Shown: positions 10,791 to 60,762 of the stretch, in pieces
Layout: every line of letters begins with the position of its first letter
How positions within the stretch are numbered: position 1 is the first letter of the stretch
Assembly (NCBI GenBank): GCA_013177895.1
Contig: JABLXV010000008.1
Coordinates: 18,205-82,204 of the forward strand
DNA from: Brevinematales bacterium
GTDB lineage: Bacteria > Spirochaetota > Brevinematia > Brevinematales > GWF1-51-8
DNA: 64,000 bases
Reading direction: 5' to 3'
Made by a program: the position numbers and the translations under genes
Notes under the pieces: model-generated
Databases searched by the model: none
The model's input: only the letters and a program-made list of their open reading frames with translations
Told to the model about the DNA's origin: nothing

Positions 10791-10883
10791 TTGGACTCTT
10801 TTACGATTTTCATTATAATATAGGGCGTTCCCAATAAATGCTGCGGTACGGCGGTTATCGGAAGCGCCCTCCTGTTTGGGCAT

Positions 10884-11063
10884 GTTGACGAAGGTGGGAA
10901 TTTAACTATTTTCCGTCACTGCGATGAGCAAAGCGAAGAAGCAGTCAATCTAAGAATATACAATATAAACAAATAGATTGCTTCGGGTATGGTTCGGCAT
11001 CCCGTTGAATGCGGGACAAGTGCTCACCATGACGCCTCGCATTGACAAAAACAGTTCGTAACC
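10884..11063 (+). mobile_element. MITE-like palindromic repeat, copy A
   Basis: It aligns end to end with 60535-60693 (near-identical apart from a ~20-nt internal indel). It shares the framework gttgacgaa..ttccgtcactgcga..gaagcagtcaatct..atagattgcttcgg..ctcaccatgacgcctcgc..atgacaaaaacagttcgt. Confidence 0.75.
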
Positions 11064-11105
11064 AACCCTGTTCATTATGGGTTTATCAATGATAAAGGAA
11101 AGCGT

Positions 11106-25405: not shown

Positions 25406-25434
25406 TTGACAAATTGGTCATCATATTTTATGTT
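25406..25434 (+). promoter_or_regulatory. candidate sigma70 promoter
   Basis: ttgaca, 17 nt, tatgtt; it lies upstream of the 25490 start. Confidence 0.35.
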
Positions 25435-25489
25435 TAGACGCGATATTATTGATGAATTAACTGTACTTATGTTAGAAATGGAGGTGGTT

Positions 25490-27331
25490 ATGAAAGGGGC
25501 TGTTTTATTGTTGGCGGGTCTGCTGTTATTCTCGTCATGCGCGTTATTCGACGAACTGTTAAATCCGGGGGATATTAATCATCTAATCATTTCCGCGAAC
25601 GATTTAATTGCACCGGTTGTCACGATCGTCTCACCGACTAACGGGCAGAGTGTAAACGAGGCTTGTTCGGTGACTTTAGATATATTAGAAGAGGGTTCCG
25701 GTGTTAATGAGGTCAATGTATCCAAGGATAAGGTATCATGGATAAAAGCCTCCCTCACTGGGAATTATTGGACCGGTATTCTCAATCTTCCCATCGGGTC
25801 GAATACGATCTATGTTTATGCAACCGATAAACGCGGTAATTGTTCGAGTACAAATTCAGTGGATGTTATTTCCGTTGGCCCGGCGGTCATCGCGATTTCT
25901 TATCCCGTCGAGGGGGAAATCTATTATAATCAGATCAGCGCGGTGCTTGGGAACGCGTTTCTCACCGCGCCGCAAAAAATTGTTGCAATAGACATCTCGG
26001 TAAACGGCGGGGGATTTGTCAATATCACGAACAATACCGGCACCAATTCGACCGCGTGGAGTTTTACCGCGGGTTCATTGGTATACGGAACAAACACGCT
26101 CCAGGCAAGGGTAGTTTCTAGCCTGGGGATAACCACTCTTTCGGAAATCAAAACATTTCTACTCGTTCATCAGGAAACGAATATATTTTATAATTTAAAC
26201 GCCGCCGGGGCCTGTGAACTGGGCTGGTCGATAGCTGTGACCCCCGACGGGAATACGATCGTCGCAGGCGCGCCTAGAGAAAACTCATATACTGGAGCCG
26301 TATACTATTACAATTGGAATGGAAGTACATGGATTACGAATAAGTTTATTTATGCAAACTTAGCAGATAATGATAGATTAGGCGTTTCAATATCCGTTTC
26401 ATCGGACGGAAACACCATTATTGCAGGAGCTACCGGTGATGATGGAAAAGGTGCAGTATACCGATTTTATTATGATGGGACAAAATGGATTTCCAATAAA
26501 TTTATTGCGTATGACGGTTTAAATGGTGATACATTTGGTGTTTCTGTCGCCGTTTCGTCAAACGGGAATACTTTTATAACCGGCGCTGTATATAAAAACG
26601 CTAATCAGGGCGCTGTTTACCGGTTTCATTGGACGGGTTCCAACTGGATTACAAATACTATTACAGCTTGTGACGCTTCTTCGGACGGTCATTTCGGGTG
26701 GGCGGTCGCGATTACACCCGACGGCGATACGTTTGCAGTAAGCGCTCCACTTGATGACGAAAACGGCGTAGATTCCGGGGCTGTCTATCGGTTCAAATGG
26801 AATGGAAGTGTTTGGCTGACGAATAAAATTATGGCGAATTCCGAATCGCCTGCCGATTATCTTGGCGTAGGTTCTTATGATAGTTTTCATGCATTATTTG
26901 CTTCTTCAACACCTCTTTTAATTTCGTCTGACGGAAATACTGTTATTGCCGGCGCAATCGGGAAGAACAGCTATCAGGGCGGGGTATACCGCTTCGTTTG
27001 GAACGGCTCTTCATTTGATGAAACTCAGTTTTCCGCTTATGACGGTGTTATAAATGATTATTTCGGCAGTTCTGTCGCCGCAACGCCGGACGGGAATAAT
27101 ATTATAGTGGGAGCTTATCAGGTAAATTCCCAGCAGGGCGCGGTTTACCATTTCAAATGGAACGGGGGTATGTGGACGACTAATAAAATAACGGTCGGAA
27201 CAGGCGGCGACTACTTCGGCAGTTCGGTGGCGGTATCGCCCGATGGGAATATCATCTACGCGGGCGCGCCGGGAACGGATGAGCCCGTAGGCGAAGCGGG
27301 CGCGGTGTACCAATTCATCAATTCGCAGTAA
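25490..27331 (+). CDS. lipoprotein with N-terminal Ig-like domains and a seven-repeat FG-GAP-like beta-propeller
   Basis: I prefer the start at 25490 (RBS ggaggtgg; MKGAVLLLAGLLLFSSC lipobox). There are seven ~50-60-aa repeats of the form (D)xFGxSVAxSxDGNTxxxGA....GAVYxFxWNGSxWxTNK. Confidence 0.75.
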   Translation: MKGAVLLLAGLLLFSSCALFDELLNPGDINHLIISANDLIAPVVTIVSPTNGQSVNEACSVTLDILEEGSGVNEVNVSKDKVSWIKASLTGNYWTGILNLPIGSNTIYVYATDKRGNCSSTNSVDVISVGPAVIAISYPVEGEIYYNQISAVLGNAFLTAPQKIVAIDISVNGGGFVNITNNTGTNSTAWSFTAGSLVYGTNTLQARVVSSLGITTLSEIKTFLLVHQETNIFYNLNAAGACELGWSIAVTPDGNTIVAGAPRENSYTGAVYYYNWNGSTWITNKFIYANLADNDRLGVSISVSSDGNTIIAGATGDDGKGAVYRFYYDGTKWISNKFIAYDGLNGDTFGVSVAVSSNGNTFITGAVYKNANQGAVYRFHWTGSNWITNTITACDASSDGHFGWAVAITPDGDTFAVSAPLDDENGVDSGAVYRFKWNGSVWLTNKIMANSESPADYLGVGSYDSFHALFASSTPLLISSDGNTVIAGAIGKNSYQGGVYRFVWNGSSFDETQFSAYDGVINDYFGSSVAATPDGNNIIVGAYQVNSQQGAVYHFKWNGGMWTTNKITVGTGGDYFGSSVAVSPDGNIIYAGAPGTDEPVGEAGAVYQFINSQ

Positions 27332-30775: not shown

Positions 30776-31252
30776 ATGACGGCCCGAGCCTTTCTGGTAC
30801 TATTAGCGTTAGCATTGACATTATCTCCGTCGCCCGCGAAGGAGTTCGTAACGGGTAAGAAACGTTCGGATAAGCCCGATGCGCTGGTCAAGAAGGCGGG
30901 GAAACTCCTCCTGATATGCAACGGGATTTTCACGGCGAATATTTCCGGCCTTGAAACCGCGGCGGACGCGAAGGATGTCGTTAAGAATATTGCCCTGACC
31001 GACGAACAGTTACGGAATGCTATACTCGCCGAAGCCGGTACGCTGAATGCTATCGACGCGGGATTGAATAACGAGGCATGGGATCAACTGAAAAAGGAAA
31101 TCGATCTGCTGATATTTTCATCGGTAACCTATCAGAAGAAGGTCGAGGAATTAATGGAAAAGTTCAAGGATGATACGAAGGGGCTTGAACTGATTAACGA
31201 GGCTTATAAGAAAATGAACGAATGGACGCACGGATACTATAAGGAAGAGTAA
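30776..31252 (+). CDS. small secreted helical protein, distant member of the lipoprotein family at 57.6-60.5 kb
   Basis: The signal peptide is MTARAFLVLLALALTLSPSPA. Motifs ETAADAKDVVKNI and EKFKDDTKGLELINEAY are present. Confidence 0.6.
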   Translation: MTARAFLVLLALALTLSPSPAKEFVTGKKRSDKPDALVKKAGKLLLICNGIFTANISGLETAADAKDVVKNIALTDEQLRNAILAEAGTLNAIDAGLNNEAWDQLKKEIDLLIFSSVTYQKKVEELMEKFKDDTKGLELINEAYKKMNEWTHGYYKEE

Positions 31253-32228: not shown

Positions 32229-32675
32229 ATGAAACGACAGGTTATTTTGGTGACTACCATGCTCCTTCTTTCATCGATGGTAATCGGCGGGCAGGCGGGC
32301 GTGAATATTTCGGAGCATCGTCTGGTCGCGAAGGTAAAGAATCTGCTGAATCAGTGTATTAAGATTACCAAATCCGCCGGGGAAAAAATTACCGCTCCGA
32401 CGCAGCCCGCTTTGGCCGAGAAGGTTCTCAAATCCGCGTCCTCCGCGATAAAAACTCCCGCGAAAAAGCTCTACGGGATACTCTCCGCCCTCGACGAACC
32501 GGTGTTAAAAAGCGTTCAGTCGACGCTGGAGAAACAATTCAAGGACTATTTTAACGAATTGATGGAGCTCGATATGACAATCTACGAAATATATAAAAAT
32601 AACATGTTTTCCGATGCCGGTAAGGCGCTCGATCAGGCGAATACGGAGTTTAAACGCCTCGCGAAAGGACAATAA
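32229..32675 (+). CDS. small secreted helical protein (weak family member)
   Basis: RBS ggagga and a signal peptide (MKRQVILVTTMLLLSSMVIGG) are present. The mature part is helical and K/A/E/L-rich. Confidence 0.55.
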   Translation: MKRQVILVTTMLLLSSMVIGGQAGVNISEHRLVAKVKNLLNQCIKITKSAGEKITAPTQPALAEKVLKSASSAIKTPAKKLYGILSALDEPVLKSVQSTLEKQFKDYFNELMELDMTIYEIYKNNMFSDAGKALDQANTEFKRLAKGQ

Positions 32676-33803: not shown

Positions 33804-34259
33804 ATGGATTTCAGGAAAACTTTAATGATTTGCGGTCTGATCATGGCGCTATCGGGGATTACATTCGCCGCCGAAAAACATACCCGCACGGCAAAGAATT
33901 CCACTAAGGATACCTTGTCAACGATTGTATTTATTATGCAGGGTATGTCGGAAGCGCTGAAAACGGGTAATGATAAACTTATGGAATGTCCGGATAAGAA
34001 AGCGGCAACCGAGGTTATCCGTGAAACCGCGTCGAAATGTAATGATAGTATTTTAAAGATGATGGAAATAATAACCCAATCCCCGGAACTTGCCGGGGAT
34101 AAGGATTTTACCGATAAGGCGCAATCGAGTGTGAAGGATGTAGAGGACAAGTTGGCGGATTTCAAGAATGCGATCGAGGAATGGTCGGACGCGCACGGGT
34201 TGAGCGAGAAAGAGAAAAACGACCTCAAGGCGATTATTGAAAAAGCGTTCAGTAATTAA
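33804..34259 (+). CDS. small secreted helical protein, distant family member
   Basis: A signal peptide is present. Motifs CPDKKAATEVIRETASKCNDSILKMMEI and AGDKDFTDKAQSSV are present. Confidence 0.6.
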   Translation: MDFRKTLMICGLIMALSGITFAAEKHTRTAKNSTKDTLSTIVFIMQGMSEALKTGNDKLMECPDKKAATEVIRETASKCNDSILKMMEIITQSPELAGDKDFTDKAQSSVKDVEDKLADFKNAIEEWSDAHGLSEKEKNDLKAIIEKAFSN

Positions 34260-35064: not shown

Positions 35065-35147
35065 TCAGTTATCAGGGGTATCGGGGCGTAAAATATGCTA
35101 TGGAAACGGATGAATGATACCTCATATGAAATAGTATGGAGACGGAA

Positions 35148-35621
35148 ATGAGAGTTTTTATAAAAATAGTCCTGTTATCGGCGCTGATTTTTTCGGGCGT
35201 GTCCGCGGATGATTATAGCGCGCGGACTCGTTCCGGCGGGGCGGTCGGTATTATTAAGGCAAAGATATTTCTTATTAACGGTCTCTCCCATGTCGTCGAT
35301 GTATTGAACGAAGCCTCCGCCGAAGTGAAAAAAGCCCAGACCGCGCAGGAGTTGTCGGATATCATCTTGTATACCGGGAAAAAGTTCAAGGATATCATGG
35401 GACTGATGAAAAAAACAGTAAAACCATACGAGAATATCATAGAAAACGATAAGGATTTTATGGAAGCCGGGCAGACGTTAGCCGGACAGATGATGACCGC
35501 CTATACGAAGTTTCAGGATGCCGTAATGAAGTGGCGCGAGGGGAAGACTCTTTCCCCGCAGGACGAGGCGTTACTTCTCGCGGCGGTAAAGGCTCTGAGC
35601 GAATTCGGGGATGACGAATGA
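35148..35621 (+). CDS. small secreted helical protein, distant family member
   Basis: I prefer the start at 35148 (RBS ggag; MRVFIKIVLLSALIFSGVSA). Motifs AQTAQELSDIILYTGKKFKDIMGLMKK and ENDKDFMEAGQTL are present. Confidence 0.6.
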   Translation: MRVFIKIVLLSALIFSGVSADDYSARTRSGGAVGIIKAKIFLINGLSHVVDVLNEASAEVKKAQTAQELSDIILYTGKKFKDIMGLMKKTVKPYENIIENDKDFMEAGQTLAGQMMTAYTKFQDAVMKWREGKTLSPQDEALLLAAVKALSEFGDDE

Positions 35622-40908: not shown

Positions 40909-42510
40909 TCATGGAATTCCTTTAACCGCGAGGAAATCCGCGACGTCGTAATGGAAGTTATCGAGCGCGATCTGCATGAGCGTCCTGCCCGATGCGTCCT
41001 TATATAACGTGTCCGCGCCCGATAGCGCCAGGTATTCCACCATCGTAAGATTCCCGAACTCGACCGCAATCTCCAGCGCGGTTTCGCCGAGCTTGGTCTT
41101 GTCGTTCAGCGTCGCGCCGTGCGATACAAGGAAATTCGCCATCGCGATATTTCCCTTGAACGCCGCGCAGTGCAGGGGAGTCCATTTCCCGAAGTCCGAC
41201 GCGTTGACGTCCGCGCCCCGTTCGAGCAGGTATTCCGCCATCTCCAAATCTCCCGCGATAGCCGCCTTGTGCAGGAGGGTATGTCCCCACGAGTCCTGCT
41301 CCGCGATAGACGCGCCGGATTTGAGCAGAGCGTCTACTATGTCGAGATGCCCGAACGCCCCGGCGATCATAAGCGGCGACCATCCGTACTTGTTCTTGGT
41401 ATTCATCTTTGCGCCGTGGGCGAGCAGGAAAAGTACCGTAGCGGTATGCCCGCGTTTCGCGGCGAGGTAGAGCGGGGTATCCCCGCGCATATTCAAATCG
41501 TTGACCTTGCACCCCTTCGACAGGAGAAACTCCGTCATCGCGGTCTGTCCCCATGCGGCGGCATGGTGCAGGGCGGTATGTCCGCTCCCGTCCTTAATCA
41601 GGTATATGTTCTTCTTCGCGTCGAGAAGCATCCCGGCGATGGGGATATTCCCCACCGCGGCGGCTATATGAAACGGGGTTTCGCCGTCGGCGTTCTTGTC
41701 GTCCGGCTTCGCGCCCTTCGATAGCAGGAACCGCGCCGATTGAAGGTCTCCCGCGAGACATGCGAGATGGAGCGGGGTTGCCTTGGACGCGTTCTTCGGC
41801 GCGGGCTTGGCCTTCGCGTCGAGCAGGAGTTTCACGATATCGGGATGCCCCTTGGCGGCGGCGAAATGAAGCGGGGTATCGCCGTTAGTGGTCGCGGCGT
41901 TCACATCGGCGCCGTGGCCGATCAGGAGCGACGCCGTAGCGGGATCCCCGTTATCGCACGCGAAATGCAGGGGCGTGAGTTTCTGGGAGTTGTTTTCCTT
42001 TGCCGCCGCGCCGGATTTTAACAGTTCCCCGGCAGCGATCGAATGCCCGCCCCATGCCGCCATCATCAGCGGCGAGAAGCCGGTCATTCCCTTCTGCCAT
42101 ACCGGGGATTGTCCGCGGTCGAGCAGGAGCCGCACGGTCGCAAGGTCTCCGTTATAGCACGCGAGCTGGAACGGGGTATAACGCTGCGAACCATCCGCCC
42201 CTCCGGCAGTCTGCGCGAGCGATGCGCCGTGGTCGAGCAGGTACTGTGCCGCTCCGCTCTGTCCGTTGAGGACGGCGATATGCAGGGGGGACGCGTCGAG
42301 AAGAGTGATATTCCTGTATTGGTAGTAACTGGTGGTATGAACGAGGAGGGGCTCTTCGGAGACGATTTCCTTGAGTCCGGCGATATCGCCTTCGACGCTC
42401 GCGATCAGGATATCGATCTCAGGGTGCGGGATTTCGGGACGGGTCTGGTTGCCGCAGGATGCGGCGGATAGGAACAGGAGCGCCGAAATGGCAAGCCGCC
42501 GGATATTCAC
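40909..42510 (-). CDS. ankyrin-repeat lipoprotein (about 14-15 ANK repeats, GC-rich)
   Basis: The lipobox is LFLSAASCGN. The repeats follow TPLH.AA..GH..IV.LLL..GA..N. Its start abuts the dCMP deaminase stop. Confidence 0.85.
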   Translation of the reverse strand: MNIRRLAISALLFLSAASCGNQTRPEIPHPEIDILIASVEGDIAGLKEIVSEEPLLVHTTSYYQYRNITLLDASPLHIAVLNGQSGAAQYLLDHGASLAQTAGGADGSQRYTPFQLACYNGDLATVRLLLDRGQSPVWQKGMTGFSPLMMAAWGGHSIAAGELLKSGAAAKENNSQKLTPLHFACDNGDPATASLLIGHGADVNAATTNGDTPLHFAAAKGHPDIVKLLLDAKAKPAPKNASKATPLHLACLAGDLQSARFLLSKGAKPDDKNADGETPFHIAAAVGNIPIAGMLLDAKKNIYLIKDGSGHTALHHAAAWGQTAMTEFLLSKGCKVNDLNMRGDTPLYLAAKRGHTATVLFLLAHGAKMNTKNKYGWSPLMIAGAFGHLDIVDALLKSGASIAEQDSWGHTLLHKAAIAGDLEMAEYLLERGADVNASDFGKWTPLHCAAFKGNIAMANFLVSHGATLNDKTKLGETALEIAVEFGNLTMVEYLALSGADTLYKDASGRTLMQIALDNFHYDVADFLAVKGIP

Positions 42511-47990: not shown

Positions 47991-48044
47991 CAATTATTGC
48001 ACCTAAAAAATCAAATAACCTACACCCTTCATAAAATTTTCCCC

Positions 48045-48072
48045 TTGACAAATAATAATCCTATGTTATATT
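48045..48072 (+). promoter_or_regulatory. sigma70 promoter of CAP-domain paralog 1
   Basis: TTGACA, 16 nt, TATATT. The whole ~60-nt upstream block is duplicated at 49552-49612. Confidence 0.6.
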
Positions 48073-48097
48073 TACACCATGATGTACCGGAGGGCTT

Positions 48098-49483
48098 ATG
48101 AATAAGGCGTTGTTTTTTATCCTGTTACTCATCCCTGTATTTCTCTTTCCGAAGGTCACCAAGGTCACCATCCGTAACGGGAGCGGGTACGGAATTGCGG
48201 AGCTTTATATTGTTCCGTCAAAGGGATTTAAAGGTAAATGGGGAAAAGACCTGATGAAGAACAAGTCAAAATGGGAATACTCGGACTTTGCGGGGCATGA
48301 GGTCACGGTAAAATATACTGCAAAAGACGGCGCTCTTTATCATGTAAAATTCAAGGATTTTTATAACGATTGGGGGGAGCTCGAATCGGTCGATCTCAGC
48401 AAGCACAATCCTCTGATTTTCAAAATGCACGCCGCCTACAATACAAACTATATCCCGAAAAACCCGGGGCTCGGCTACTTCGAGAAGAACCCGTGGGGGA
48501 TCAAGTACGACAACTCCAAAGATACCCTTAAACCATACCATTCAAAGCTGGAAATCTATAATTACTTCCTCAAACTTCCCCGAAGCGCGCTGGAAAATGA
48601 AATATTTGTGGAAAATGCGGTTTATTTTTATGTCGATGATTATAAGATGAATGCGGGGACGCTTCCGGCTAAATCGCTCAATCAGGGCTTGGTCTGGCTG
48701 AACTATCTTCGTTGGCTCGCAGGGGTGAACAGTGATATTCAGTATACCGACAAGCTGAACAATATTGCACAGCATGGAGCTTTTATTCTCGCGGCGAATA
48801 CCGGTGACGGGATAACTGTCCATCCCAAGAAGCCTTATGGGGTTACCGACGAGCAGTTCGAATTGGGTTATGAAGCATGCAGTCATGCGAATATCGCAGA
48901 GGGTTGCGGGCTGAGTAGTTTCCCGGCAGCCCTTCGACTGTGGATCGGGTATGTGAACGCCTGTACTTCGTCGACGGTGGGCGACCGCGAATGGATCATT
49001 TCGCCCTCGCTGGGGAATGTCGGTTTCGGTTTTAACGGTTCGTTCGCCCTACTGTACCTTGGGGATGTCCCAAATCCCAACCCGAAGTTCGAGCAAAAGG
49101 CTATCTGTTGGCCCGCGCCGGGGCATTTCCCTAATGAGTTCCTCGCGGGCTATAAATCCGGTGAACCGTGGACGGTTACGGTCAATCCTAAGTATTACAA
49201 GACTCCCGATATTAATAAGGTTACTGTGAAAATGACGCGCCTGATCGATAATACGGTGATCGTGCTGGACGTGTCCCACAACAAGGCAAGTGCTTGCGGG
49301 CCGTACCTGAACGTCAAACTCAACGTCGGCGGGATGCCGAACAGCATCATGTTCCGGCCGGACTACTCACTGGCAAACTACTCAGACGGGCAGGTATACC
49401 GGGTGGAGATTTCCGGGCTTGAAGACCTGAGCGGAAACCCGGCTGAGATGAGCTATACCGTGGAATTTTTCAATCTGCAATAG
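48098..49483 (+). CDS. secreted CAP/SCP (PR-1-like) domain protein, paralog 1
   Basis: A signal peptide is present. The central segment is GLVWLNYLRWLAGVNSDIQYTDKLNNIAQHGAFILAAN...H...ANIAEG...VGDREWIISPSLGNVGFG, a CAP-like pattern. It also has a small N-terminal beta domain and a C-terminal Ig-like domain. Confidence 0.65.
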   Translation: MNKALFFILLLIPVFLFPKVTKVTIRNGSGYGIAELYIVPSKGFKGKWGKDLMKNKSKWEYSDFAGHEVTVKYTAKDGALYHVKFKDFYNDWGELESVDLSKHNPLIFKMHAAYNTNYIPKNPGLGYFEKNPWGIKYDNSKDTLKPYHSKLEIYNYFLKLPRSALENEIFVENAVYFYVDDYKMNAGTLPAKSLNQGLVWLNYLRWLAGVNSDIQYTDKLNNIAQHGAFILAANTGDGITVHPKKPYGVTDEQFELGYEACSHANIAEGCGLSSFPAALRLWIGYVNACTSSTVGDREWIISPSLGNVGFGFNGSFALLYLGDVPNPNPKFEQKAICWPAPGHFPNEFLAGYKSGEPWTVTVNPKYYKTPDINKVTVKMTRLIDNTVIVLDVSHNKASACGPYLNVKLNVGGMPNSIMFRPDYSLANYSDGQVYRVEISGLEDLSGNPAEMSYTVEFFNLQ

Positions 49484-49556
49484 TCCGTTTTCATTCATCT
49501 ACCGCTCGAACAGGGATTTATTGCTGAATAATCACCCTGCGTCTAAAAATTCCCCC

Positions 49557-49584
49557 TTGACAAATAATAATCCTATGTTATATT
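49557..49584 (+). promoter_or_regulatory. sigma70 promoter of CAP-domain paralog 2
   Basis: TTGACA, 16 nt, TATATT; identical core to 48045-48072. Confidence 0.6.
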
Positions 49585-49609
49585 AACTCCATGATGTACC
49601 GGAGGGCTT

Positions 49610-50975
49610 ATGAAGCGCGTATTATTCCTGATCCTGCTGGCGATTCCCGCGGCGGTTTTCCCGAAAACCGTCCCGTTCTCGCTGGTAAATAACAGTAAAT
49701 GGGGCGTTGAGGAACTGTATATCGTTCCCGCCAAGGGATTCCAAGGGAAAATGGGGAAAGAACCTGATTACCCCGAATGTGATTTACGGGTGGGAGGGCG
49801 CGACGGTCAAGTACAGTATCAAGAGCGGCGCGCTTTATCATGTGAAGTTTAAGGATTTCTTCGGGCAATGGGGTTCGGTCGAATCGGTCGAACTGGGCAA
49901 GTACAACCCGCTGAAGGTCGCATGCCATGCCGCGTATAATACGAACTATATCCCGCAGAACCCGGGTCTCGGCTATTTCGAGAAAAACCCGTGGGGTATC
50001 AAGTATGATACGTCGAAGGATACCCTACAGCCCCTGCATACTAAGATCGATATTTACAACTATTACCAGAAACTCCCCAAGCGGGCTGAAACGACCACAT
50101 GGTTCGACGTGCAGCCGGAGGTCTATGTGAAAAACGGGTTTAACCTGAACCCCGGTAAAATCGCGAAAAAATCCTTTGAGGACGGATTGGTCTGGATCAA
50201 TTATTACCGTTGGCTCGTCGGTCTGAACAGCGATATCCAGTGCTCGGATAAGCAGAATAACCTCGCCCAGCATGGGGCGTTTATCCTGCAATATGCCAAC
50301 GATGTAACCTCTACCAAGCCGAAAAAAGCCCCCCAGATCACGGACGAGCAGTATGAGATGGGTTTACAGGGACTTGCGCATGCGAATGTCGCATACGGGT
50401 GTTCGCTCGAGGATTTTGTGACATCCCTGCGGTGGTGGATCGGGTACTACAACCAATGTTCGTCGGAAACGGTCGGCGACCGCGAATGGATTATCTCGCC
50501 GTACCTGGGCGAGGTCGGGTTCGGGATGGCGGGAAGCTATTCCGTACTGAGCTTCGGAGAATCCAATCCCGGCGCGAAATTCGAGCAGAAGGCGGTGTGT
50601 TTCCCCGCGCCGGGGCTATTCCCCCATGAATTCCTGATCGGGTATAAGGAGGGCGAACCGTGGACGGTCACGGTCAACCCGAAATACTACAAGACCCCCA
50701 ATATCAATCAGGTCACCGTGAAGCTGACGCGTCTCTACGATAATATGGTGATTGTGCTGGATAAGTCCCACAACAAGGCAAGTGCTTGCGGGCCGTACCT
50801 GAACGTCAAACTCAACTTCGGGGGGATGCCGAACAGCATCATGTTCCGGCCGGACTTCACGCAGGCGAACTATGCCGACGGTCAGGTATACCGTGTGGAG
50901 ATTTCCGGGCTGGAGGGTGCCGACGGGACTCCCGAGACGCTCAGTTATACGGTGGAGTTTTTTAACCTCGATTAA
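49610..50975 (+). pseudogene. CAP/SCP-domain protein paralog 2, reading frame interrupted by a 1-nt insertion (or assembly error)
   Basis: The ORF at 49610 (signal peptide ..AKGFQGK) and the ORF at 49707 (..KGKWGKNLITPNV..) both align to paralog 1 (SKGFKGKWGKDLMKNK). The frames join at the run gggAAAAtgggg (49748-49751), where paralog 1 has ggtAAAtgggg. Confidence 0.65.
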
Positions 50976-56850: not shown

Positions 56851-57036
56851 GATGACGAACAAGGGAATTGTGGAATTTCCTGTCACTGCGAGACGCAATG
56901 TCTTATATGGAGGTAAAATAGATTGCCCCGGCTATGGTTCGACTGGCTCACCATGACGCCTCGCCTGTCGTCCATCTACTATCGAAGATGGAAGACGGTT
57001 AGAAAGCAGGCAATGACATAAAACAGTCTGTCGACA
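56851..57036 (+). mobile_element. MITE-like repeat, copy C (divergent)
   Basis: The sequence reads gatgacgaac..ttcctgtcactgcgag..atagattgcc..ctcaccatgacgcctcgc..caatgacataaaacagtctgtcgac. Framework and orientation match copies A and B. Confidence 0.6.
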
Positions 57037-57164: not shown

Positions 57165-57650
57165 ATGCAGAAAATCGGGGTCTATCCCGGTACGTTCGAC
57201 CCTCCCACCAACGGGCATATCGATGTCGCGATCAGGGCGTCTCATTTCTTCGATAAACTCATCATAGGGGTAGGAAACAACCCCGGTAAAAATCCGCTGT
57301 TTTCCGCGGACGAACGGGTGGCGATGCTTCAGGAGATATTCAAGGATAGCCCGAATATCGAAATCCGCGCGTTCTCGAACCTGCTGATCAACTTTGTGAG
57401 CGATTGCGGGGCGATGGCGCTGGTACGCGGACTGCGGGCTGTGTCCGATTTCGAATACGAGCTCCAGCTCGCGTCGTTTAACTATCACCTGAACGATACG
57501 GTCGATACGGTGTTTTTTATGGCGCGCGAGGAGAACCTGTTCGTCAGTTCGTCGATTATCCGCGAGATAGCGCAGTACGGCGGGGATGTTTCCGACCGGG
57601 TGCCGCCGGTCGTATGGAAGAAACTGCGCGCGGTGTACCCGATTAAGTGA
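57165..57650 (+). CDS. coaD: phosphopantetheine adenylyltransferase
   Basis: GVYPGTFDPPTNGHIDV (the T/HxGH motif) is present. The protein is 161 aa. Confidence 0.92.
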   Translation: MQKIGVYPGTFDPPTNGHIDVAIRASHFFDKLIIGVGNNPGKNPLFSADERVAMLQEIFKDSPNIEIRAFSNLLINFVSDCGAMALVRGLRAVSDFEYELQLASFNYHLNDTVDTVFFMAREENLFVSSSIIREIAQYGGDVSDRVPPVVWKKLRAVYPIK

Positions 57651-58069
57651 TGAAGTATATGATAGGTATATTTGTGCTCACCCTGTTATCCTGCTCGGAG
57701 TATGCTCAGGTTAAAACAACTTCCGATATAGGCGAATATTATCAAAGAATGGCGAATGTTTGGATAAATGCTTCTGATCAGGTTTCTTCAGCAAAAAATC
57801 CGCAGACTGTATGCGATGCGCTCAAGGATGCGGATAGGGTGTTTTCAGTTTTATTCGAAGAAATGGAAATGAATAAGCAAGTGTTGTTTCTGAATGAAGC
57901 AATGAAGACCGAGTATATGAAGCGGGAATCGGCATATCAGACTGATTTAAATATGGCGATGATGAAAGCCCGGCTGGAGACCGAAAACGCGATGAAACGG
58001 TTTGCGGATGATATCACGGGAGTAAAAATGATCGGGGAAGTATATAAGTCTAGTAAGCTATTCCCCTGA
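57647..58069 (+). CDS. paralogous lipoprotein family, array member 1
   Basis: The lipobox is TLLSC. Motifs AKNPQTVCDALKDADRVFSVLFEEMEM and KRFADDITGVKMIGEVY are present. The start is GTG 57647 or ATG 57650, overlapping the coaD stop. Confidence 0.65.
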   Translation: MMKYMIGIFVLTLLSCSEYAQVKTTSDIGEYYQRMANVWINASDQVSSAKNPQTVCDALKDADRVFSVLFEEMEMNKQVLFLNEAMKTEYMKRESAYQTDLNMAMMKARLETENAMKRFADDITGVKMIGEVYKSSKLFP

Positions 58070-58119
58070 TTTCAGCCTAGTTTATGGAGCGGAAACTTTT
58101 GGTTTTTAAAGGATGTTTA

Positions 58120-58557
58120 ATGAAAAAATTATTTTTATTATTCGGCATAATCGGAATAAGTACGATGCTCCTATCCTGCGGAGCCGATCTGAGCAAGGCG
58201 GCGGACGAGATACGCCCGTCGATACAGCGAATGGCCGCGGTGATCGATAACGCCTCCCAGCGGATGACGGGTGTGCAGGACGCGGACGAGGCCTCCGCGA
58301 TCATGAAAGAAACCGCCGCTAAAATGAAACAAATCATTATCGAGATGAAGGATACCGAGAAAAAATATAATCTGACTCCTGAAGAATCGAAGAAACTGGT
58401 TAATATATTGAAAACCGATTACAATGCGGTGGGGAAAGTTCTCGTTACGCTGAACAGTAATATCAACATGGTTTTGGACAAGTATAAGGACGATCCTAAG
58501 ATGGCGGAGAAACTGATGGATGCGCTCCTAAGCCTTCGGGAAATCGGGAGTATGTAG
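58120..58557 (+). CDS. paralogous lipoprotein family, array member 2
   Basis: The start is MKKLFLLFGIIGISTMLLSC. Motifs VQDADEASAIMKETAAKMKQIIIEMKDTEKKYNL and DKYKDDPKMAEKLMDAL are present. Confidence 0.7.
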   Translation: MKKLFLLFGIIGISTMLLSCGADLSKAADEIRPSIQRMAAVIDNASQRMTGVQDADEASAIMKETAAKMKQIIIEMKDTEKKYNLTPEESKKLVNILKTDYNAVGKVLVTLNSNINMVLDKYKDDPKMAEKLMDALLSLREIGSM

Positions 58558-58611
58558 CCCGGCGGGCGGCAGAAGTTTTCATGTGGAAATTATTTATAAG
58601 GAGTGTGAAAT

Positions 58612-59055
58612 ATGAAAAAGCTATTAGGTTTCGGGGTTGTAATGGGATTGGCGATGATGGTTCTTTCATGCGCCGGTACGGATATGAAGAAAGTCGAGAA
58701 CGAAGCCCGCGCAGCGATGAAAAATATGGTCGCATCGATGAACGATATCGCGGGAAAGTTGAGCGCGACGGAATCGCCCGAAGAAGCGATCAAGCTGATA
58801 AAAAAATCGGGAGAACTGTTCAAGGACTTCAATAAGGAACTGACCGGGATATCGGATAAGTATAAACTGAGCGTCGCGCAGGATGACGAGCTTCAGGCGA
58901 GTCTGAGCGATGTCTATGAGGATTTGGGCGCCGCGAGCGAAACACTGAAAGCCTCGTTCGACGCCGCCGCCATAAAATTCGCCGATGACGCGGATTTTAT
59001 GGAACAGATGAAGACCACCATGGAGGATATTGTAGAAGCGAGCCAGATGGAGTAA
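58612..59055 (+). CDS. paralogous lipoprotein family, array member 3
   Basis: The RBS is aaggag and the lipobox is MVLSC. Motifs TESPEEAIKLIKKSGELFKDFNKELTGISDKYKL and IKFADDADFMEQMKTTM are present. Confidence 0.7.
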   Translation: MKKLLGFGVVMGLAMMVLSCAGTDMKKVENEARAAMKNMVASMNDIAGKLSATESPEEAIKLIKKSGELFKDFNKELTGISDKYKLSVAQDDELQASLSDVYEDLGAASETLKASFDAAAIKFADDADFMEQMKTTMEDIVEASQME

Positions 59056-59092
59056 TTCCCGGGCATGACTATTATATAGAAGGAGAAGTATT

Positions 59093-59530
59093 ATGAAGAA
59101 GAATCTCGGATTTGGATTGTTGATGGGATTGATTATGATGACGATTTCCTGCGGCGCGGCGGATTTGAACAAGGTACAGGCCGAGATGACGCCGCCGTTA
59201 AATAAACTGACCGTACTGCTGAACGGGACGATCGATACTATCGGGACTATGACCAACGCGGATGAGATTGTTGCGGCATTGAACAAAACCACCGGGGAAG
59301 CCGCCGCGATCGTATCCGAATTGAAGCTGATTGAAGGGAAGTACAACCTGAACGAAGCCGATGCGGCGAAACTTCTTAAACTGATGGCAAAACCCGCCGA
59401 CGAGCTGACGAAAGCGGGGGAGAAGCTGGGTAAGACGGTCGACGGTATTCTGCTGAAGTTCGACGACGAGGAAGTGAAAGATAAAATTCACCAGGCGCGC
59501 ATGAATCTCGCCTACAGTTTGAGTATGTAG
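59093..59530 (+). CDS. paralogous lipoprotein family, array member 4
   Basis: The RBS is gaaggag and the lipobox is MTISC. Motifs MTNADEIVAALNKTTGEAAAIVSELKLIEGKYNL and LKFDDEEVKDKIHQARM are present. Confidence 0.7.
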   Translation: MKKNLGFGLLMGLIMMTISCGAADLNKVQAEMTPPLNKLTVLLNGTIDTIGTMTNADEIVAALNKTTGEAAAIVSELKLIEGKYNLNEADAAKLLKLMAKPADELTKAGEKLGKTVDGILLKFDDEEVKDKIHQARMNLAYSLSM

Positions 59531-59572
59531 CCCGGTAAGGACTGCGATAAATAATATTACGGAGCGTACCTC

Positions 59573-60010
59573 TTGAAGGTTATCCTGAAATTCGCGGCGT
59601 TCGGTCTTTTACTGTCGCTCGCGTCCTGCGGTACGGATATTAATCTAGCCGCCGGGAAATATAGTACAGTATTGGATAAGTGGATCGCCGTAGTCGATTC
59701 CGCGGTCGAGGAGACGTCGTCGGCAAAGGATGCAACCCAGGCGATAACCGCCGCCGATAAGGCCACTGCGGAGGCCAACGCGCTCCTTTCGGAGATGAAC
59801 GCGATCGACGACGAGTACCCTGTTTCCGGGAAAGACGCGGATATGCTGAGGGCGATGCTCCGGGAGAAGTACGACAAGCTCGCGGACTTATCGCAGACCC
59901 TCGGGGAAACCGTCGGCGGACTGCTGGCGCGTTACGCGGGAGACCCGTCGGCCACAGAGCGTCTGACCAAGGCCTTCGACCCGCTCATGATCCTTATTCC
60001 GCAGGAATAA
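59573..60010 (+). CDS. paralogous lipoprotein family, array member 5
   Basis: The start is TTG with RBS ggag, and the lipobox is SLASC. Motifs AKDATQAITAADKATAEANALLSEMNAIDDEYPV and ARYAGDPSATERLTKAF are present. Confidence 0.65.
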   Translation: MKVILKFAAFGLLLSLASCGTDINLAAGKYSTVLDKWIAVVDSAVEETSSAKDATQAITAADKATAEANALLSEMNAIDDEYPVSGKDADMLRAMLREKYDKLADLSQTLGETVGGLLARYAGDPSATERLTKAFDPLMILIPQE

Positions 60011-60046
60011 TTCCGCGGGAGTAATAATATTGGAGGAATGACCGTT

Positions 60047-60505
60047 ATGAAAAGACGAATGATGATTGTTACGGTGTTTACGGCGGTATTTACCGCGTTT
60101 TTAACGCTCGGTTCCTGCGCGGGCGGGAGCTCCGATTTCAGCAAGGCTAAGGCGGAGCTCGACGAGTTAATCACGTCTACCTGCAAGGTTCAGAACGAGG
60201 CGGTCAAGACGATCAACTCGTCGACGAATATCGAAGAGATTTTAGGTATTATTAAAACGGTAACCGACGCAAAGAAGGGTATCGATCCTGGAATCGACCG
60301 GATATCGAAAAAATACCCCAATCTGAATCAGGAAGAGGTGGATCAGATTCTTGTATTTATGGGTGAAAAAGTGCTCGAGTTCACGCTTTCGAGCGACGAA
60401 TTTGTCCAGGCGGTGGATGGCGCGATCCGTACCAATCTGGCGGATCAGGAGAAGACTAAACCGCTGATTCTCGCCCTTCAGGAATACCAGTCGTTAGGTC
60501 AATAA
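60047..60505 (+). CDS. paralogous lipoprotein family, array member 6
   Basis: I prefer the ATG at 60047 over 60038 because of RBS ggagg spacing. The lipobox is TLGSC. The motif STNIEEILGIIKTVTDAKKGIDPGIDRISKKYPNL is present. Confidence 0.65.
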   Translation: MKRRMMIVTVFTAVFTAFLTLGSCAGGSSDFSKAKAELDELITSTCKVQNEAVKTINSSTNIEEILGIIKTVTDAKKGIDPGIDRISKKYPNLNQEEVDQILVFMGEKVLEFTLSSDEFVQAVDGAIRTNLADQEKTKPLILALQEYQSLGQ

Positions 60506-60534
60506 ACGAAATATCGCGGCCCGCTTCGGGGCCT

Positions 60535-60693
60535 GTTGACGAAGACGGAGATTTAACTATTTTCCGTCACTGCGATGAGCAAAGCGAAGAAGCAGTCAAT
60601 CTAACAATATACACTATAAACAGATAGATTGCTTCGGCTATGGTTCGGCAAGCTCACCATGACGCCTCGCAATGACAAAAACAGTTCGTCAAC
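60535..60693 (+). mobile_element. MITE-like repeat, copy B, with 9-nt terminal inverted repeats
   Basis: It starts gttgacgaa and ends ttcgtcaac. The interior is nested palindromes (gtcactgcga../..tcgcaatgac; gaagcagtcaatct/agattgcttc). GC-rich hairpin-like strings flank it, with ttttttatt on the right side. Confidence 0.75.
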
Positions 60694-60733
60694 ACGCCCT
60701 TCGGCGGGGCTTTTTTATTGAACCCATGAAATC

Positions 60734-60762
60734 TTGTCATTTTCCATTCCCTATTTTATAAT
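60734..60762 (+). promoter_or_regulatory. sigma70 promoter for lysC
   Basis: ttgtca, 17 nt, tataat; the -10 ends about 30 nt upstream of the GTG start. Confidence 0.55.

What the first reader, a model, noticed from the sequence alone, without database searches (positions are those of the whole stretch)
57647..60505. Tandem array of six divergent ~145-aa paralogous lipoproteins with no family I can name
Six consecutive same-strand ORFs of 140-152 aa are separated by only 27-54 nt, most with a visible RBS (the first instead overlaps the coaD stop). All six begin with a signal peptide ending in a lipobox Cys (LLSC, LLSC, VLSC, TISC, LASC, LGSC). The mature parts align by eye over their whole length. 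Several begin with G(A/T)D(L/M/I)xK after the Cys. All have a central block, e.g. VQDADEASAIMKETAAKMKQIIIEMKD / TESPEEAIKLIKKSGELFKDFNKEL / MTNADEIVAALNKTTGEAAAIVSEL. Most have a KY(N/K)L motif and a C-terminal (K/R)(F/Y)xDD-type motif (DKYKDDPKMAEKLMDAL, IKFADDADFMEQMKTTM, LKFDDEEVKDKIHQARM, KRFADDITGVKMIGEVY). Composition (A/E/K/L-rich, few Pro/Gly) suggests a helical bundle, and there are no catalytic motifs. Divergence between neighbours is high, so this is an old or diversifying expansion rather than a recent duplication. Two same-orientation copies of the MITE-like element (56851-57036 and 60535-60693) bracket coaD plus the array. One hypothesis is a surface or periplasmic lipoprotein multigene family for ligand binding or antigenic diversity. 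Another is an array of orphan periplasmic immunity proteins against interbacterial toxins, since tandem arrays of divergent small lipoproteins are the typical architecture of such arrays.
Basis: partly seen in the sequence, partly recalled or inferred. Interest (0 to 1): 0.7.

Follow-up and report, generated by a model that had tools for sequence, protein, structure and literature searches.

The report
Conserved operon of helical-bundle lipoprotein paralogs
Six neighbouring genes in an uncultured Brevinematales spirochaete encode small membrane-anchored four-helix-bundle lipoproteins of a family no database names; the cluster is old, stable and selectively maintained rather than a toxin-immunity or antigen-variation array, and its function is still unknown.

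Summary
Six same-strand genes (57650-60505) follow coaD with gaps of -1 to 54 nt. Each has a ribosome-binding site and a lipoprotein signal peptide. P2-P6 are clearly paralogous (mature parts, z 10-18 against shuffles). P1 is a very divergent member, supported by a profile score, a positional orthologue and a predicted fold.

AlphaFold2 predicts a four-helix bundle for both members modelled (P2 pLDDT 92, P1 88). Pfam, NCBIfam, PADLOC, PDB sequences and Foldseek against PDB give no significant match.

The proteins belong to a wider unnamed family of about 140-aa lipoproteins in uncultured Spirochaetota and Aminicenantes/Acidobacteriota (hhalign probability 99.6%).

The coaD-array-aspartate kinase arrangement is syntenic in five other Brevinematales loci (two probably one lineage). 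Orthologues match one-to-one in the same order, with dN/dS of 0.10-0.33. There are no toxin, secretion-system or mobile genes nearby. The flanking MITE-like repeats are absent from relatives.

This argues against an orphan-immunity array and against antigenic variation. It favours an ancient, co-transcribed set of subfunctionalised envelope lipoproteins, probably periplasmic binding or scaffold modules. Function remains inferred.

Two to four more dispersed, non-lipidated relatives lie at 30.8-35.6 kb. Interest is modest.

The parts
57165..57650 (+). coaD (phosphopantetheine adenylyltransferase), first gene of the putative operon. Its stop overlaps the P1 start.
   Evidence: ORF. The orthologues carry PF01467 CTP_transf_like. 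coaD lies immediately upstream of the array in every Brevinematales locus that reaches that far (L001, L010, L011, L013).
57650..58069 (+). P1, a very divergent family member (139 aa from the ATG; lipobox LLSC).
   Evidence: It scores 15.8 bits against an HMM built without it, and 0 of 5000 shuffles reach that. Positional orthologue L013:5618-6046, E 7e-12. AF2 model has four helices, pLDDT 87.7. Absent in L001, L010 and L015.
58120..58557 (+). P2 lipoprotein (145 aa; LLSC).
   Evidence: AF2 four-helix bundle, pLDDT 92.3. Orthologues P0004, P0012 and others at 71-90% identity. dN/dS 0.15-0.17.
58612..59055 (+). P3 lipoprotein (147 aa; VLSC).
   Evidence: Orthologues P0007 and P0013. dN/dS 0.24-0.33.
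59093..59530 (+). P4 lipoprotein (145 aa; TISC).
   Evidence: It links P6 to the rest of the array (z 14.9). dN/dS 0.10-0.13.
59573..60010 (+). P5 lipoprotein (145 aa; TTG start; LASC).
   Evidence: dN/dS 0.20.
60047..60505 (+). P6 lipoprotein (152 aa from MKRRMM; LGSC). This is the most conserved and most widespread type.
   Evidence: Orthologues occur in all Brevinematales species representatives that were found, including a single-copy locus, L004. dN/dS 0.10-0.12.
60696..60720 (+). Terminator-like hairpin plus T-run that would close the coaD-P6 transcription unit. A strong promoter-like site for aspartate kinase follows at 60734-60762.
   Evidence: consensus scan only.
56851..57036 (+). 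MITE-like repeat copy upstream of coaD (partial, rearranged).
   Evidence: Absent from relatives.
60520..60708 (+). MITE-like repeat copy downstream of P6, with 24-nt terminal inverted repeats. A third copy lies at 10878-11064.
   Evidence: Absent from relatives.
30776..31252 (+). X1, a dispersed secreted relative without a lipobox (158 aa; MEKFKDDTKGLELI motif).
   Evidence: 33.4 bits against the mature-only family HMM; the best of 3000 shuffles is 9.6.
35136..35621 (+). X4, a dispersed secreted relative without a lipobox (161 aa).
   Evidence: 34.8 bits against the mature-only HMM; the best shuffle is 11.2. Related to X3 (E 2e-8).
33804..34259 (+). X3, a probable distant relative (151 aa), supported mainly through X4.
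   Evidence: 17.1 bits against 13.9 for the best shuffle. BLASTP against X4 gives E 5e-8.
32229..32675 (+). X2, a marginal candidate relative (148 aa).
   Evidence: 15.4 bits against 13.2 for the best shuffle. Inconclusive.

Best explanation
The region is an ancient, vertically inherited operon (coaD plus six genes) in a Brevinematales spirochaete. It encodes paralogous small lipoproteins of an undescribed family.

Shown:
- Each protein has a Sec/SPII-type signal peptide with a lipobox Cys.
- AlphaFold2 models of P2 and P1 give a mature part (~125 aa) that is a single up-down four-helix bundle starting one to four residues after the lipid anchor; the other four are assumed alike by homology.
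- The duplications predate the split of the Brevinematales lineages sampled.
- Five paralogues (P2-P6) have one-to-one orthologues in the same order, and each is under purifying selection.
- The part that differs most between paralogues (helix 4 and the C-terminal tail) is the part best conserved within each orthologue group.

Inferred:
- The proteins are acylated and held flat against a membrane facing the periplasm. The reasons are the very short tether and the Asp at +3/+4, judged by Borrelia sorting rules.
- They act as non-enzymatic binding or scaffold modules.
- Each paralogue recognises its own partner, or its own neighbour in a mixed assembly, through its paralogue-specific helix 4 and tail surface.
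- They are co-expressed from one transcript.

No catalytic or metal/haem-binding residues are conserved. The confidence given (0.5) is for the whole statement: the shown (descriptive) part I hold at about 0.85, the inferred mechanism at about 0.3.
For: - Gene structure, ribosome-binding sites and lipoboxes.
- Paralogy statistics.
- Fold.
- No named family or solved structure matches.
- Wider family: 67 representative clusters; hhalign probability 99.6% to the Aminicenantes/Spirochaetota lipoprotein group.
- Conserved synteny coaD-array-ask in L001, L010, L011, L013 and L015, with L014 as a partial copy of the L013 arrangement.
- Orthologue groups in the tree.
- dN/dS is 0.10-0.33, against 0.04-0.10 for the flanking coaD and ask.
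- Helix 4 and the tail are the most paralogue-divergent segment (4.06 distinct residues among 5 paralogues) yet the most invariant helix within orthologue groups (0.72). Loop 1 is the most variable (0.44).
- There is one weak terminator-like hairpin inside the array, within the P6 signal-peptide coding region. A terminator-like site lies after P6 and a promoter-like site lies before ask.
- No His is conserved; P2 has none.
- Independent tandem arrays of 5 and 3 genes occur in another metagenome, among housekeeping genes.
Against: - No partner, ligand or phenotype is known.
- No conserved neighbouring gene exists outside Brevinematales.
- Localisation (periplasmic or surface) rests on rules from Borrelia and was not tested.
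- Co-transcription rests on spacing and consensus scans only.
- dN is 3-10 times higher than in the flanking genes, so constraint is moderate.
- P1 is present here and in the distant L013 but missing in the closer L001, L010 and L015, so array content is not perfectly fixed.
- The four-helix bundle is a generic fold and by itself predicts nothing.
Confidence: 0.5

Rival explanations
1. The paralogues are subunits of one hetero-oligomeric envelope assembly (a mixed ring, lattice or bundle-of-bundles). It would have evolved from a homo-oligomeric single-copy ancestor such as the P6 type.
For: - Fixed set and order of five co-transcribed paralogues across species.
- Single-copy state in L004 and in other phyla.
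- Paralogue-specific but orthologue-conserved helix 4 and tail surfaces.
Against: - No oligomer prediction or co-evolution test could be run.
- L013 has an unrelated TerB-like gene inserted and a different member set.
- P1 is dispensable in three relatives.
- Other genomes carry 1, 3 or 5 copies, so the stoichiometry is not conserved.
Confidence: 0.15
2. The array is a set of orphan periplasmic immunity lipoproteins that neutralise cell-wall or membrane-targeting toxins delivered by competitors.
For: - The architecture fits: a tandem array of divergent small lipoproteins with periplasmic targeting.
- The proteins evolve faster than the flanking genes.
- There are noise-level hits to the helical immunity protein Tai4 (4hff_B and 4j30_B, E 0.36-0.38).
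Against: - No effector, T6SS, Rhs, CDI or integrase genes occur in the 64-kb window or in any syntenic locus.
- The array lies between coaD and aspartate kinase in all lineages, with one-to-one orthologues and a stable order.
- dN/dS is well below 1 and there is no hypervariable patch beyond one loop.
- Family members are single-copy among housekeeping genes in other phyla.
- Foldseek finds no immunity protein.
Confidence: 0.1
3. The proteins are a surface-exposed multigene family used for antigenic or phase variation, or as variable adhesins, like the Borrelia paralogous lipoprotein families.
For: - The host is a spirochaete, and the proteins are helical lipoproteins in multiple paralogous copies.
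- There are very weak hits to the Borrelia P35/BBA64 antigen (E 0.035-0.046).
Against: - The MAGs come from free-living environmental settings such as a deep mine and groundwater (record titles).
- The genes are chromosomal, syntenic and one-to-one orthologous, and under purifying selection.
- Paralogues share about 22-27% identity with no sign of gene conversion.
- The operon-like spacing implies co-expression.
- The very short tether argues against surface display under Borrelia rules (general knowledge).
- No Pfam match to Mlp, PFam54 or Erp passes its threshold.
Confidence: 0.07
4. The similarity is an artefact: unrelated small ORFs that share only a signal peptide and low-complexity helical composition.
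For: - P1 is weakly similar pairwise (z no higher than 4.3).
- Profile hits to giant repetitive helical proteins show that the composition attracts spurious matches.
Against: - Mature-part z-scores are 10-18.
- Motif columns K-Y-x-L and K-Y-x-x-D-P are conserved across 54 sequences.
- hhalign probability is 99.6%.
- Orthologues are conserved with dN/dS below 0.35.
- The AF2 models are confident.
Confidence: 0.02

Closest known systems
Paralogous helical lipoprotein families of Borrelia (Mlp, PFam54/CspA, P35/BBA64)
   Same: The host phylum is Spirochaetota. The proteins are small lipoproteins, all-alpha, present as several divergent paralogues, and have no enzymatic motifs.
   Different: - No significant sequence or fold match. 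The best is the P35 antigen at E 0.035, obtained with the profile of the wider family. No Pfam hit passes its threshold.
- The genes are chromosomal and syntenic rather than plasmid-borne.
- The host is environmental and free-living.
- The fold is a 125-aa four-helix bundle with a very short tether.
Orphan immunity-gene arrays against T6SS or other periplasm-acting toxins (for example Tai4-type helical immunity proteins)
   Same: Tandem array of divergent small proteins targeted to the periplasm, with a helical fold.
   Different: - No effector, secretion-system or mobile context.
- Stable one-to-one orthology across species.
- Housekeeping flanks.
- Tai4 match only at E 0.38.
- No Foldseek match.
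Periplasmic four-helix-bundle modules (4HB_MCP/TarH/PilJ sensor domains, cytochrome b562, LemA)
   Same: An up-down four-helix bundle of about 120-150 residues located outside the cytoplasm. Weak recurrent hits: LemA in 7 of 60 members, PilJ in 4 of 60, cytochrome b562 in 3 of 60.
   Different: - All hits fall below the curated cut-offs.
- Foldseek TM-scores normalised to the query are at most 0.55 and E is at least 0.18.
- There are no transmembrane or signalling domains.
- No His/Met haem ligands are conserved.
- The anchor is a lipid rather than a transmembrane helix.
The unnamed family of about 140-aa 'GKY...KYPEL...KYxxDP' lipoproteins in Aminicenantes/Acidobacteriota/Spirochaetota MAGs (all deposited as hypothetical proteins)
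   Same: True homologues: hhalign probability 99.6%, the same motifs, length and lipobox.
   Different: Those are mostly single-copy. The Brevinematales proteins form a distinct subgroup, expanded into a conserved five- or six-gene operon.

Membership tests
Bacterial lipoproteins (SPII-processed, PROSITE PS51257 type) | N-terminal signal peptide with a positively charged n-region, an uncharged h-region and a lipobox [LIVMFWSTAG](2)-[LIVMFYSTAGCQ]-[AGS]-C within the first ~35 residues. | tested here: met
   All six match, with Cys at residues 15-24. The Cys is nearly invariant across the 60-member alignment. Acylation itself was not tested.
Undescribed 'KY-x-L / KY-x-x-DP' four-helix-bundle lipoprotein family (this work) | Profile-level homology across the mature domain, with conserved K-Y-x-L (helix 2-3 loop) and K-[YF]-x-x-D-P (helix 3-4 loop). 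| tested here: met
   P2-P6 score 1e-33 to 1e-37 against the family HMM, which included them and P1. P1 scores 15.8 bits against an HMM built without it, above all 5000 shuffles. Motif columns are 59-83% conserved. hhalign probability 99.6%.
Orphan or poly-immunity arrays | Linkage to an effector, a secretion-system gene or a mobile element, now or as remnants. | tested here: not met
   Pfam scans of the neighbours and of the large ORFs in the window show only housekeeping-type or metabolic genes. The same is true of the syntenic loci.
Orphan or poly-immunity arrays | Homology or fold similarity to a known immunity protein. | tested here: not met
   Tai4 chains score E 0.36-0.38. Foldseek against PDB finds no immunity protein among the top hits. 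PADLOC gives nothing.
Orphan or poly-immunity arrays | Strain-to-strain variability of copy number and content. | tested here: not met
   Five orthologous members occur in the same order in L001, L010, L011 and L015. Only P1 varies.
Borrelia Mlp / PFam54 / Erp lipoprotein families | A match to the family profile above its gathering threshold. | tested here: not met
   No such match for the six proteins or for 60 relatives. Erp_C and CRASP-2 appear only as sub-threshold hits in one distant relative.
Antigenic-variation multigene families | Diversifying selection or recombination among copies. | tested here: not met
   Orthologue dN/dS is 0.10-0.33. Paralogues share about 22-27% identity without mosaic blocks.
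Antigenic-variation multigene families | Mutually exclusive expression of the copies. | not testable with these tools
   No expression data are available. The operon-like spacing and ribosome-binding sites suggest co-expression.
Cytochrome b562-type haem four-helix bundles | Conserved Met/His axial ligands. | tested here: not met
   There is no His in P1, P2, P3, P5 or P6. No conserved His or Met column exists.
Braun lipoprotein (Lpp)-like tethers | A short trimeric coiled coil with a C-terminal Lys for peptidoglycan attachment. | tested here: not met
   The fold is a four-helix bundle of about 125 aa. None of the six ends in Lys.

The most novel reading that the evidence does not exclude
The five or six conserved paralogues assemble into a previously unknown hetero-oligomeric lipoprotein structure of the spirochaetal cell envelope. 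Alternatively, they are a new class of envelope-protective or immunity lipoproteins. Either way they would be founding members of a new protein family spread across uncultured Spirochaetota and Aminicenantes.
Probability: 0.15. Interest if true: 0.55.

Novelty: new member of a known kind. Interest (0 to 1): 0.3.

Why it matters
This defines a protein family that Pfam, NCBIfam and the PDB do not cover. Its features are about 140 aa, a lipobox, a four-helix bundle, and K-Y-x-L and K-Y-x-x-D-P loop motifs. The family has at least 67 clusters at 50% identity, in lineages known almost only from metagenomes.

It is a clean example of an old paralogue array kept intact by selection. The paralogue-specific C-terminal surfaces make it a tractable case of subfunctionalisation in envelope proteins.

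Practically, it could be curated as a new DUF-type family. It also cautions against reading every tandem array of small lipoproteins as an immunity array.

It does not address any long-standing open question, and no function is in sight.

Tried and rejected
- Named families. Pfam, NCBIfam and PADLOC scans of the six proteins, and a Pfam scan of 60 relatives, gave only sub-threshold hits to assorted helical families.
- Solved structures, by sequence. PDB searches with two profiles found only designed helical bundles and noise.
- Solved structures, by fold. Foldseek against PDB with both AF2 models found nothing below E 0.18.
- Giant repetitive proteins among the profile hits (P0026, P0031, P0033, P0036) were checked. 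I set them aside as repeated-helix artefacts.
- A first genome scan with too diverse an alignment failed. The narrower one found only four Brevinematales MAG species.
- I looked for a conserved neighbour in nine unrelated loci of the wider family and found none.
- I considered a conserved membrane-distal tip as the binding site and rejected it. Within the array's orthologue groups, that loop is the most variable segment.
- Met-richness of P1-P3 as a copper-binding hint was rejected because P6 has a single Met.
- An Rfam scan of the region found nothing above noise.
- Literature searches found no description of the family.

Full report
**1. What is in the sequence**

My preferred start codons give these genes:

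| Gene | Coordinates | Note |
|---|---|---|
| P1 | 57650-58069 | ATG overlaps the coaD stop in TGATG |
| P2 | 58120-58557 | |
| P3 | 58612-59055 | |
| P4 | 59093-59530 | |
| P5 | 59573-60010 | TTG start |
| P6 | 60047-60505 | |

- Gaps between genes are -1, 50, 54, 37, 42 and 36 nt. P2-P6 are each preceded by a GGA/GGAG-type ribosome-binding site.
- A consensus scan reports one weak terminator-like hairpin inside the array (60083-60096, within the P6 signal-peptide coding region). It also reports a hairpin plus T-run at 60696-60720, and an 11/12 promoter-like site at 60734-60762 in front of aspartate kinase.
- The simplest reading is one transcription unit, coaD-P1...P6. This rests on spacing and consensus scans only.
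- All six proteins satisfy a PROSITE PS51257-type lipoprotein rule: lipobox Cys at residues 15-24, 1-3 Lys/Arg in the first eight residues, and no acidic residue before the Cys.

**2. Is the similarity more than composition?**

Yes. I compared mature parts, from the Cys onward.

- Smith-Waterman scores exceed 300 shuffles with z of 10.5-18.6 for all pairs among P2-P5, and z of 14.9 for P4-P6. BLASTP with composition correction aligns them end to end at 22-27% identity.
- P1 is the outlier, with z no higher than 4.3 in pairwise comparison. Four lines of evidence place it in the family:
  - It scores 15.8 bits against an HMM built only from P2-P6 orthologues. None of 5000 shuffles of P1 reaches that score; the best is 13.7.
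  - In the more distant genome L013, the gene directly after coaD is its homologue (24% identity over 136 residues, pairwise E 7e-12).
  - AlphaFold2 gives it the same four-helix layout, with pLDDT 87.7.
  - It carries the KRFADD motif at the same position.

**3. Fold and database status**

- The AF2 model of mature P2 has pLDDT 92.3 and pTM 0.83. It has four long helices (residues 5-30, 36-63, 68-102 with a kink, and 107-124). Helix 1 starts four residues after the lipidated Cys.
- No match reaches a curated threshold in Pfam or NCBIfam, and PADLOC gives only two weak hits.
- Scanning 60 family members individually against Pfam gives only scattered sub-threshold hits to helical families: LemA in 7 of 60, PilJ in 4 of 60, cytochrome b562 in 3 of 60.
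- PDB sequence searches with two profiles give nothing meaningful. The best natural hits include the Borrelia P35 antigen at E 0.035 and the immunity protein Tai4 at E 0.38.
- Foldseek against PDB with both models gives no hit below E 0.18, and query-normalised TM-scores of at most 0.55, all generic helical bundles.
- No His is conserved, so a haem or metal site of the b562 type is excluded.

**4. Who has it, and in what context**

- The window comes from a Brevinematales MAG; the proteins are HPY53_03550-03575. The order belongs to the phylum Spirochaetota.
- An exhaustive profile search of 1.84 billion representatives found 67 clusters at E <= 1e-3, and 17 at E <= 1e-10.
- Beyond the Brevinematales proteins, most hits are 135-150-aa lipoproteins with the signature C-G-G-x-G-K-Y...K-Y-P-E-L...K-Y-x-x-D-P. 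They come from MAGs labelled Aminicenantes, Acidobacteriota, Spirochaetaceae and Spirochaetota. All are deposited as 'hypothetical protein' without Pfam domains.
- Profile-profile comparison links the two groups with probability 99.6%.
- A few giant repetitive proteins among the hits are repeated-helix artefacts.

Synteny within Brevinematales:

- The arrangement ABC ATPase (divergent) - coaD - array - aspartate kinase - (SDR) - STAS - anti-sigma kinase is conserved in L001 (DeMMO6_14), L010 and L013. L011 and L015 (GWF1_49_6) are shorter contigs that carry the five-gene array. L014 (GWF1_51_8, apparently the same lineage as L013) is a contig end holding only the last two array genes and the downstream genes.
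- L001, L010, L011 and L015 carry five genes that are one-to-one orthologues of P2-P6, in the same order.
- L013 carries a P1-type, a P4/P5-type, an inserted unrelated TerB-like gene, a P3-type and a P6-type.
- A further Brevinematales MAG (L004) has a single P6-type gene between rnpA and aspS.
- The duplications therefore predate the divergence of these lineages, and P6 is the most widespread type.
- P1 is present in the window and in L013 but absent from the closer L001, L010 and L015. That implies repeated loss or re-acquisition.

Outside Brevinematales:

- Members are single genes among unrelated housekeeping genes (L008/L009, L019, L020, L021, L022).
- They can also form independent tandem arrays: five plus one in L007 and three in L023, both from the same metagenome.
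- No neighbouring gene recurs.

**5. Selection**

Nei-Gojobori estimates for window against L010, window against L001, and L010 against L001:

| Genes | dN/dS |
|---|---|
| Five array genes (P2-P6) | 0.10-0.33 |
| coaD | 0.04-0.10 |
| Aspartate kinase | 0.04-0.08 |

- dN in the array genes is 3-10 times higher than in the flanking genes. The genes are functional, moderately constrained, and not under pervasive positive selection.
- Across three genomes, predicted core positions are invariant within orthologue groups at 79% of sites, and exposed positions at 60%.
- Helix 4 plus the C-terminal tail differs most between paralogues (4.06 distinct residues among five). It is also the helix best conserved within each orthologue group (0.72); the tails EKLMDALLSLREIGSM, KIHQARMNLAYSL and LTKAFDPLMILIP are invariant.
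- The helix 1-2 loop is the fastest-evolving segment, at 0.44.
- This pattern is what subfunctionalised paralogues with paralogue-specific interaction surfaces would show.

**6. The flanking repeat**

- The MITE-like element is real. It has three copies in the window: 10878-11064, 56851-57036 (rearranged) and about 60520-60708. The last has 24-nt terminal inverted repeats.
- Its core is absent from all 21 loci fetched by then, including every syntenic locus.
- It is therefore a recent insertion in this genome into two intergenic regions. It is not a boundary of a mobile 'coaD + array' unit.

**7. Interpretation**

It does not support the two specific hypotheses.

- *Immunity array.* These features were tested and not met: linkage to effectors, secretion systems or mobile elements (and the locus tables), similarity to known immunity proteins, and variable content between genomes.
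- *Antigenic or ligand diversity.* This is contradicted by one-to-one orthology, purifying selection, operon organisation, and the free-living environmental origin of the MAGs.

The best-supported account is an ancient, co-transcribed set of subfunctionalised four-helix-bundle lipoproteins anchored to the membrane.

- The very short tether, with Asp at +3/+4, would favour periplasmic retention under the sorting rules worked out in Borrelia. This is my own knowledge and was not tested here.
- The most likely mode of action is non-enzymatic binding or scaffolding. Specificity would be carried by helix 4 and the tail, directed either towards distinct partners or towards each other in a mixed assembly.
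- These mechanistic steps are inference. No ligand, partner or phenotype is indicated by any result.

**8. Extension beyond the reported coordinates**

The family HMM also detects dispersed + strand genes at 30.8-35.6 kb. These have ordinary (non-lipobox) signal peptides.

- X1 (30776-31252) scores 33.4 bits and X4 (35136-35621) scores 34.8 bits against a mature-only HMM. Both are far above shuffles.
- X3 (33804-34259) is related to X4 (E 5e-8).
- X2 (32229-32675) is marginal.
- The family in this genome is therefore larger than the six-gene array, and it includes soluble secreted members.

**9. Verdict**

- The feature is a real, conserved gene cluster of an undescribed lipoprotein family with a generic fold and unknown function.
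- It is worth curating as a new family and is a good case of paralogue subfunctionalisation. It would not surprise a specialist, and it does not make an open question testable.
- Interest 0.3. Novelty: new member of a known kind, namely the paralogous lipoprotein clusters of spirochaetes and other diderms.

Noticed in passing
window 30776-31252, 32229-32675, 33804-34259, 35136-35621 (+ strand): Four dispersed ORFs of about 150-160 aa have ordinary signal peptides and no lipobox, and they alternate with unrelated genes. X1 and X4 are clear distant relatives of the array family (33-35 bits against a mature-only HMM). X3 is related to X4. X2 is marginal.
   Followed up: partly
window 10878-11064, 56851-57036, 60520-60708: A MITE-like repeat of about 185 nt is present in three intergenic copies. 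The third has 24-nt terminal inverted repeats, and its 3' end supplies the terminator-like hairpin after P6. It is absent from the syntenic loci of all relatives and has no Rfam match.
   Followed up: partly
window 48032-50975: Two adjacent genes (48098-49483, 461 aa; 49707-50975, 422 aa) form a tandem duplication. The copies are 72-85% identical at the DNA level, including an 85%-identical upstream region containing TTGACA. Neither protein has a Pfam match.
   Followed up: no
L013 7071-7451: In the GWF1_51_8-like relative, an unrelated 126-aa cytoplasmic protein with no signal peptide is inserted in the middle of the lipoprotein array. It looks TerB-like by eye only.
   Followed up: no
window 57650-58069 versus L001, L010, L015: P1 is present in this genome and in the distant L013, but it is cleanly absent (20-40 nt coaD-P2 gap) in the three closer relatives. 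That implies repeated loss or re-acquisition.
   Followed up: partly
window 40909-42510 (- strand) and 25406-27331 (+ strand): The first is a 533-aa protein made almost entirely of ankyrin repeats. The second is a 641-aa FG-GAP-repeat protein whose internal DNA repeats show up as repeat family D3.
   Followed up: no
L007 6593-8950 and 15069-15515; L023 5060-6435; L022 6001-6447 (metagenome ERZ21878447): One metagenome, possibly one organism, carries at least ten family members in arrays of 5, 3, 1 and 1 at different housekeeping loci. Tandem expansion of this family has therefore happened independently of the Brevinematales array.
   Followed up: partly
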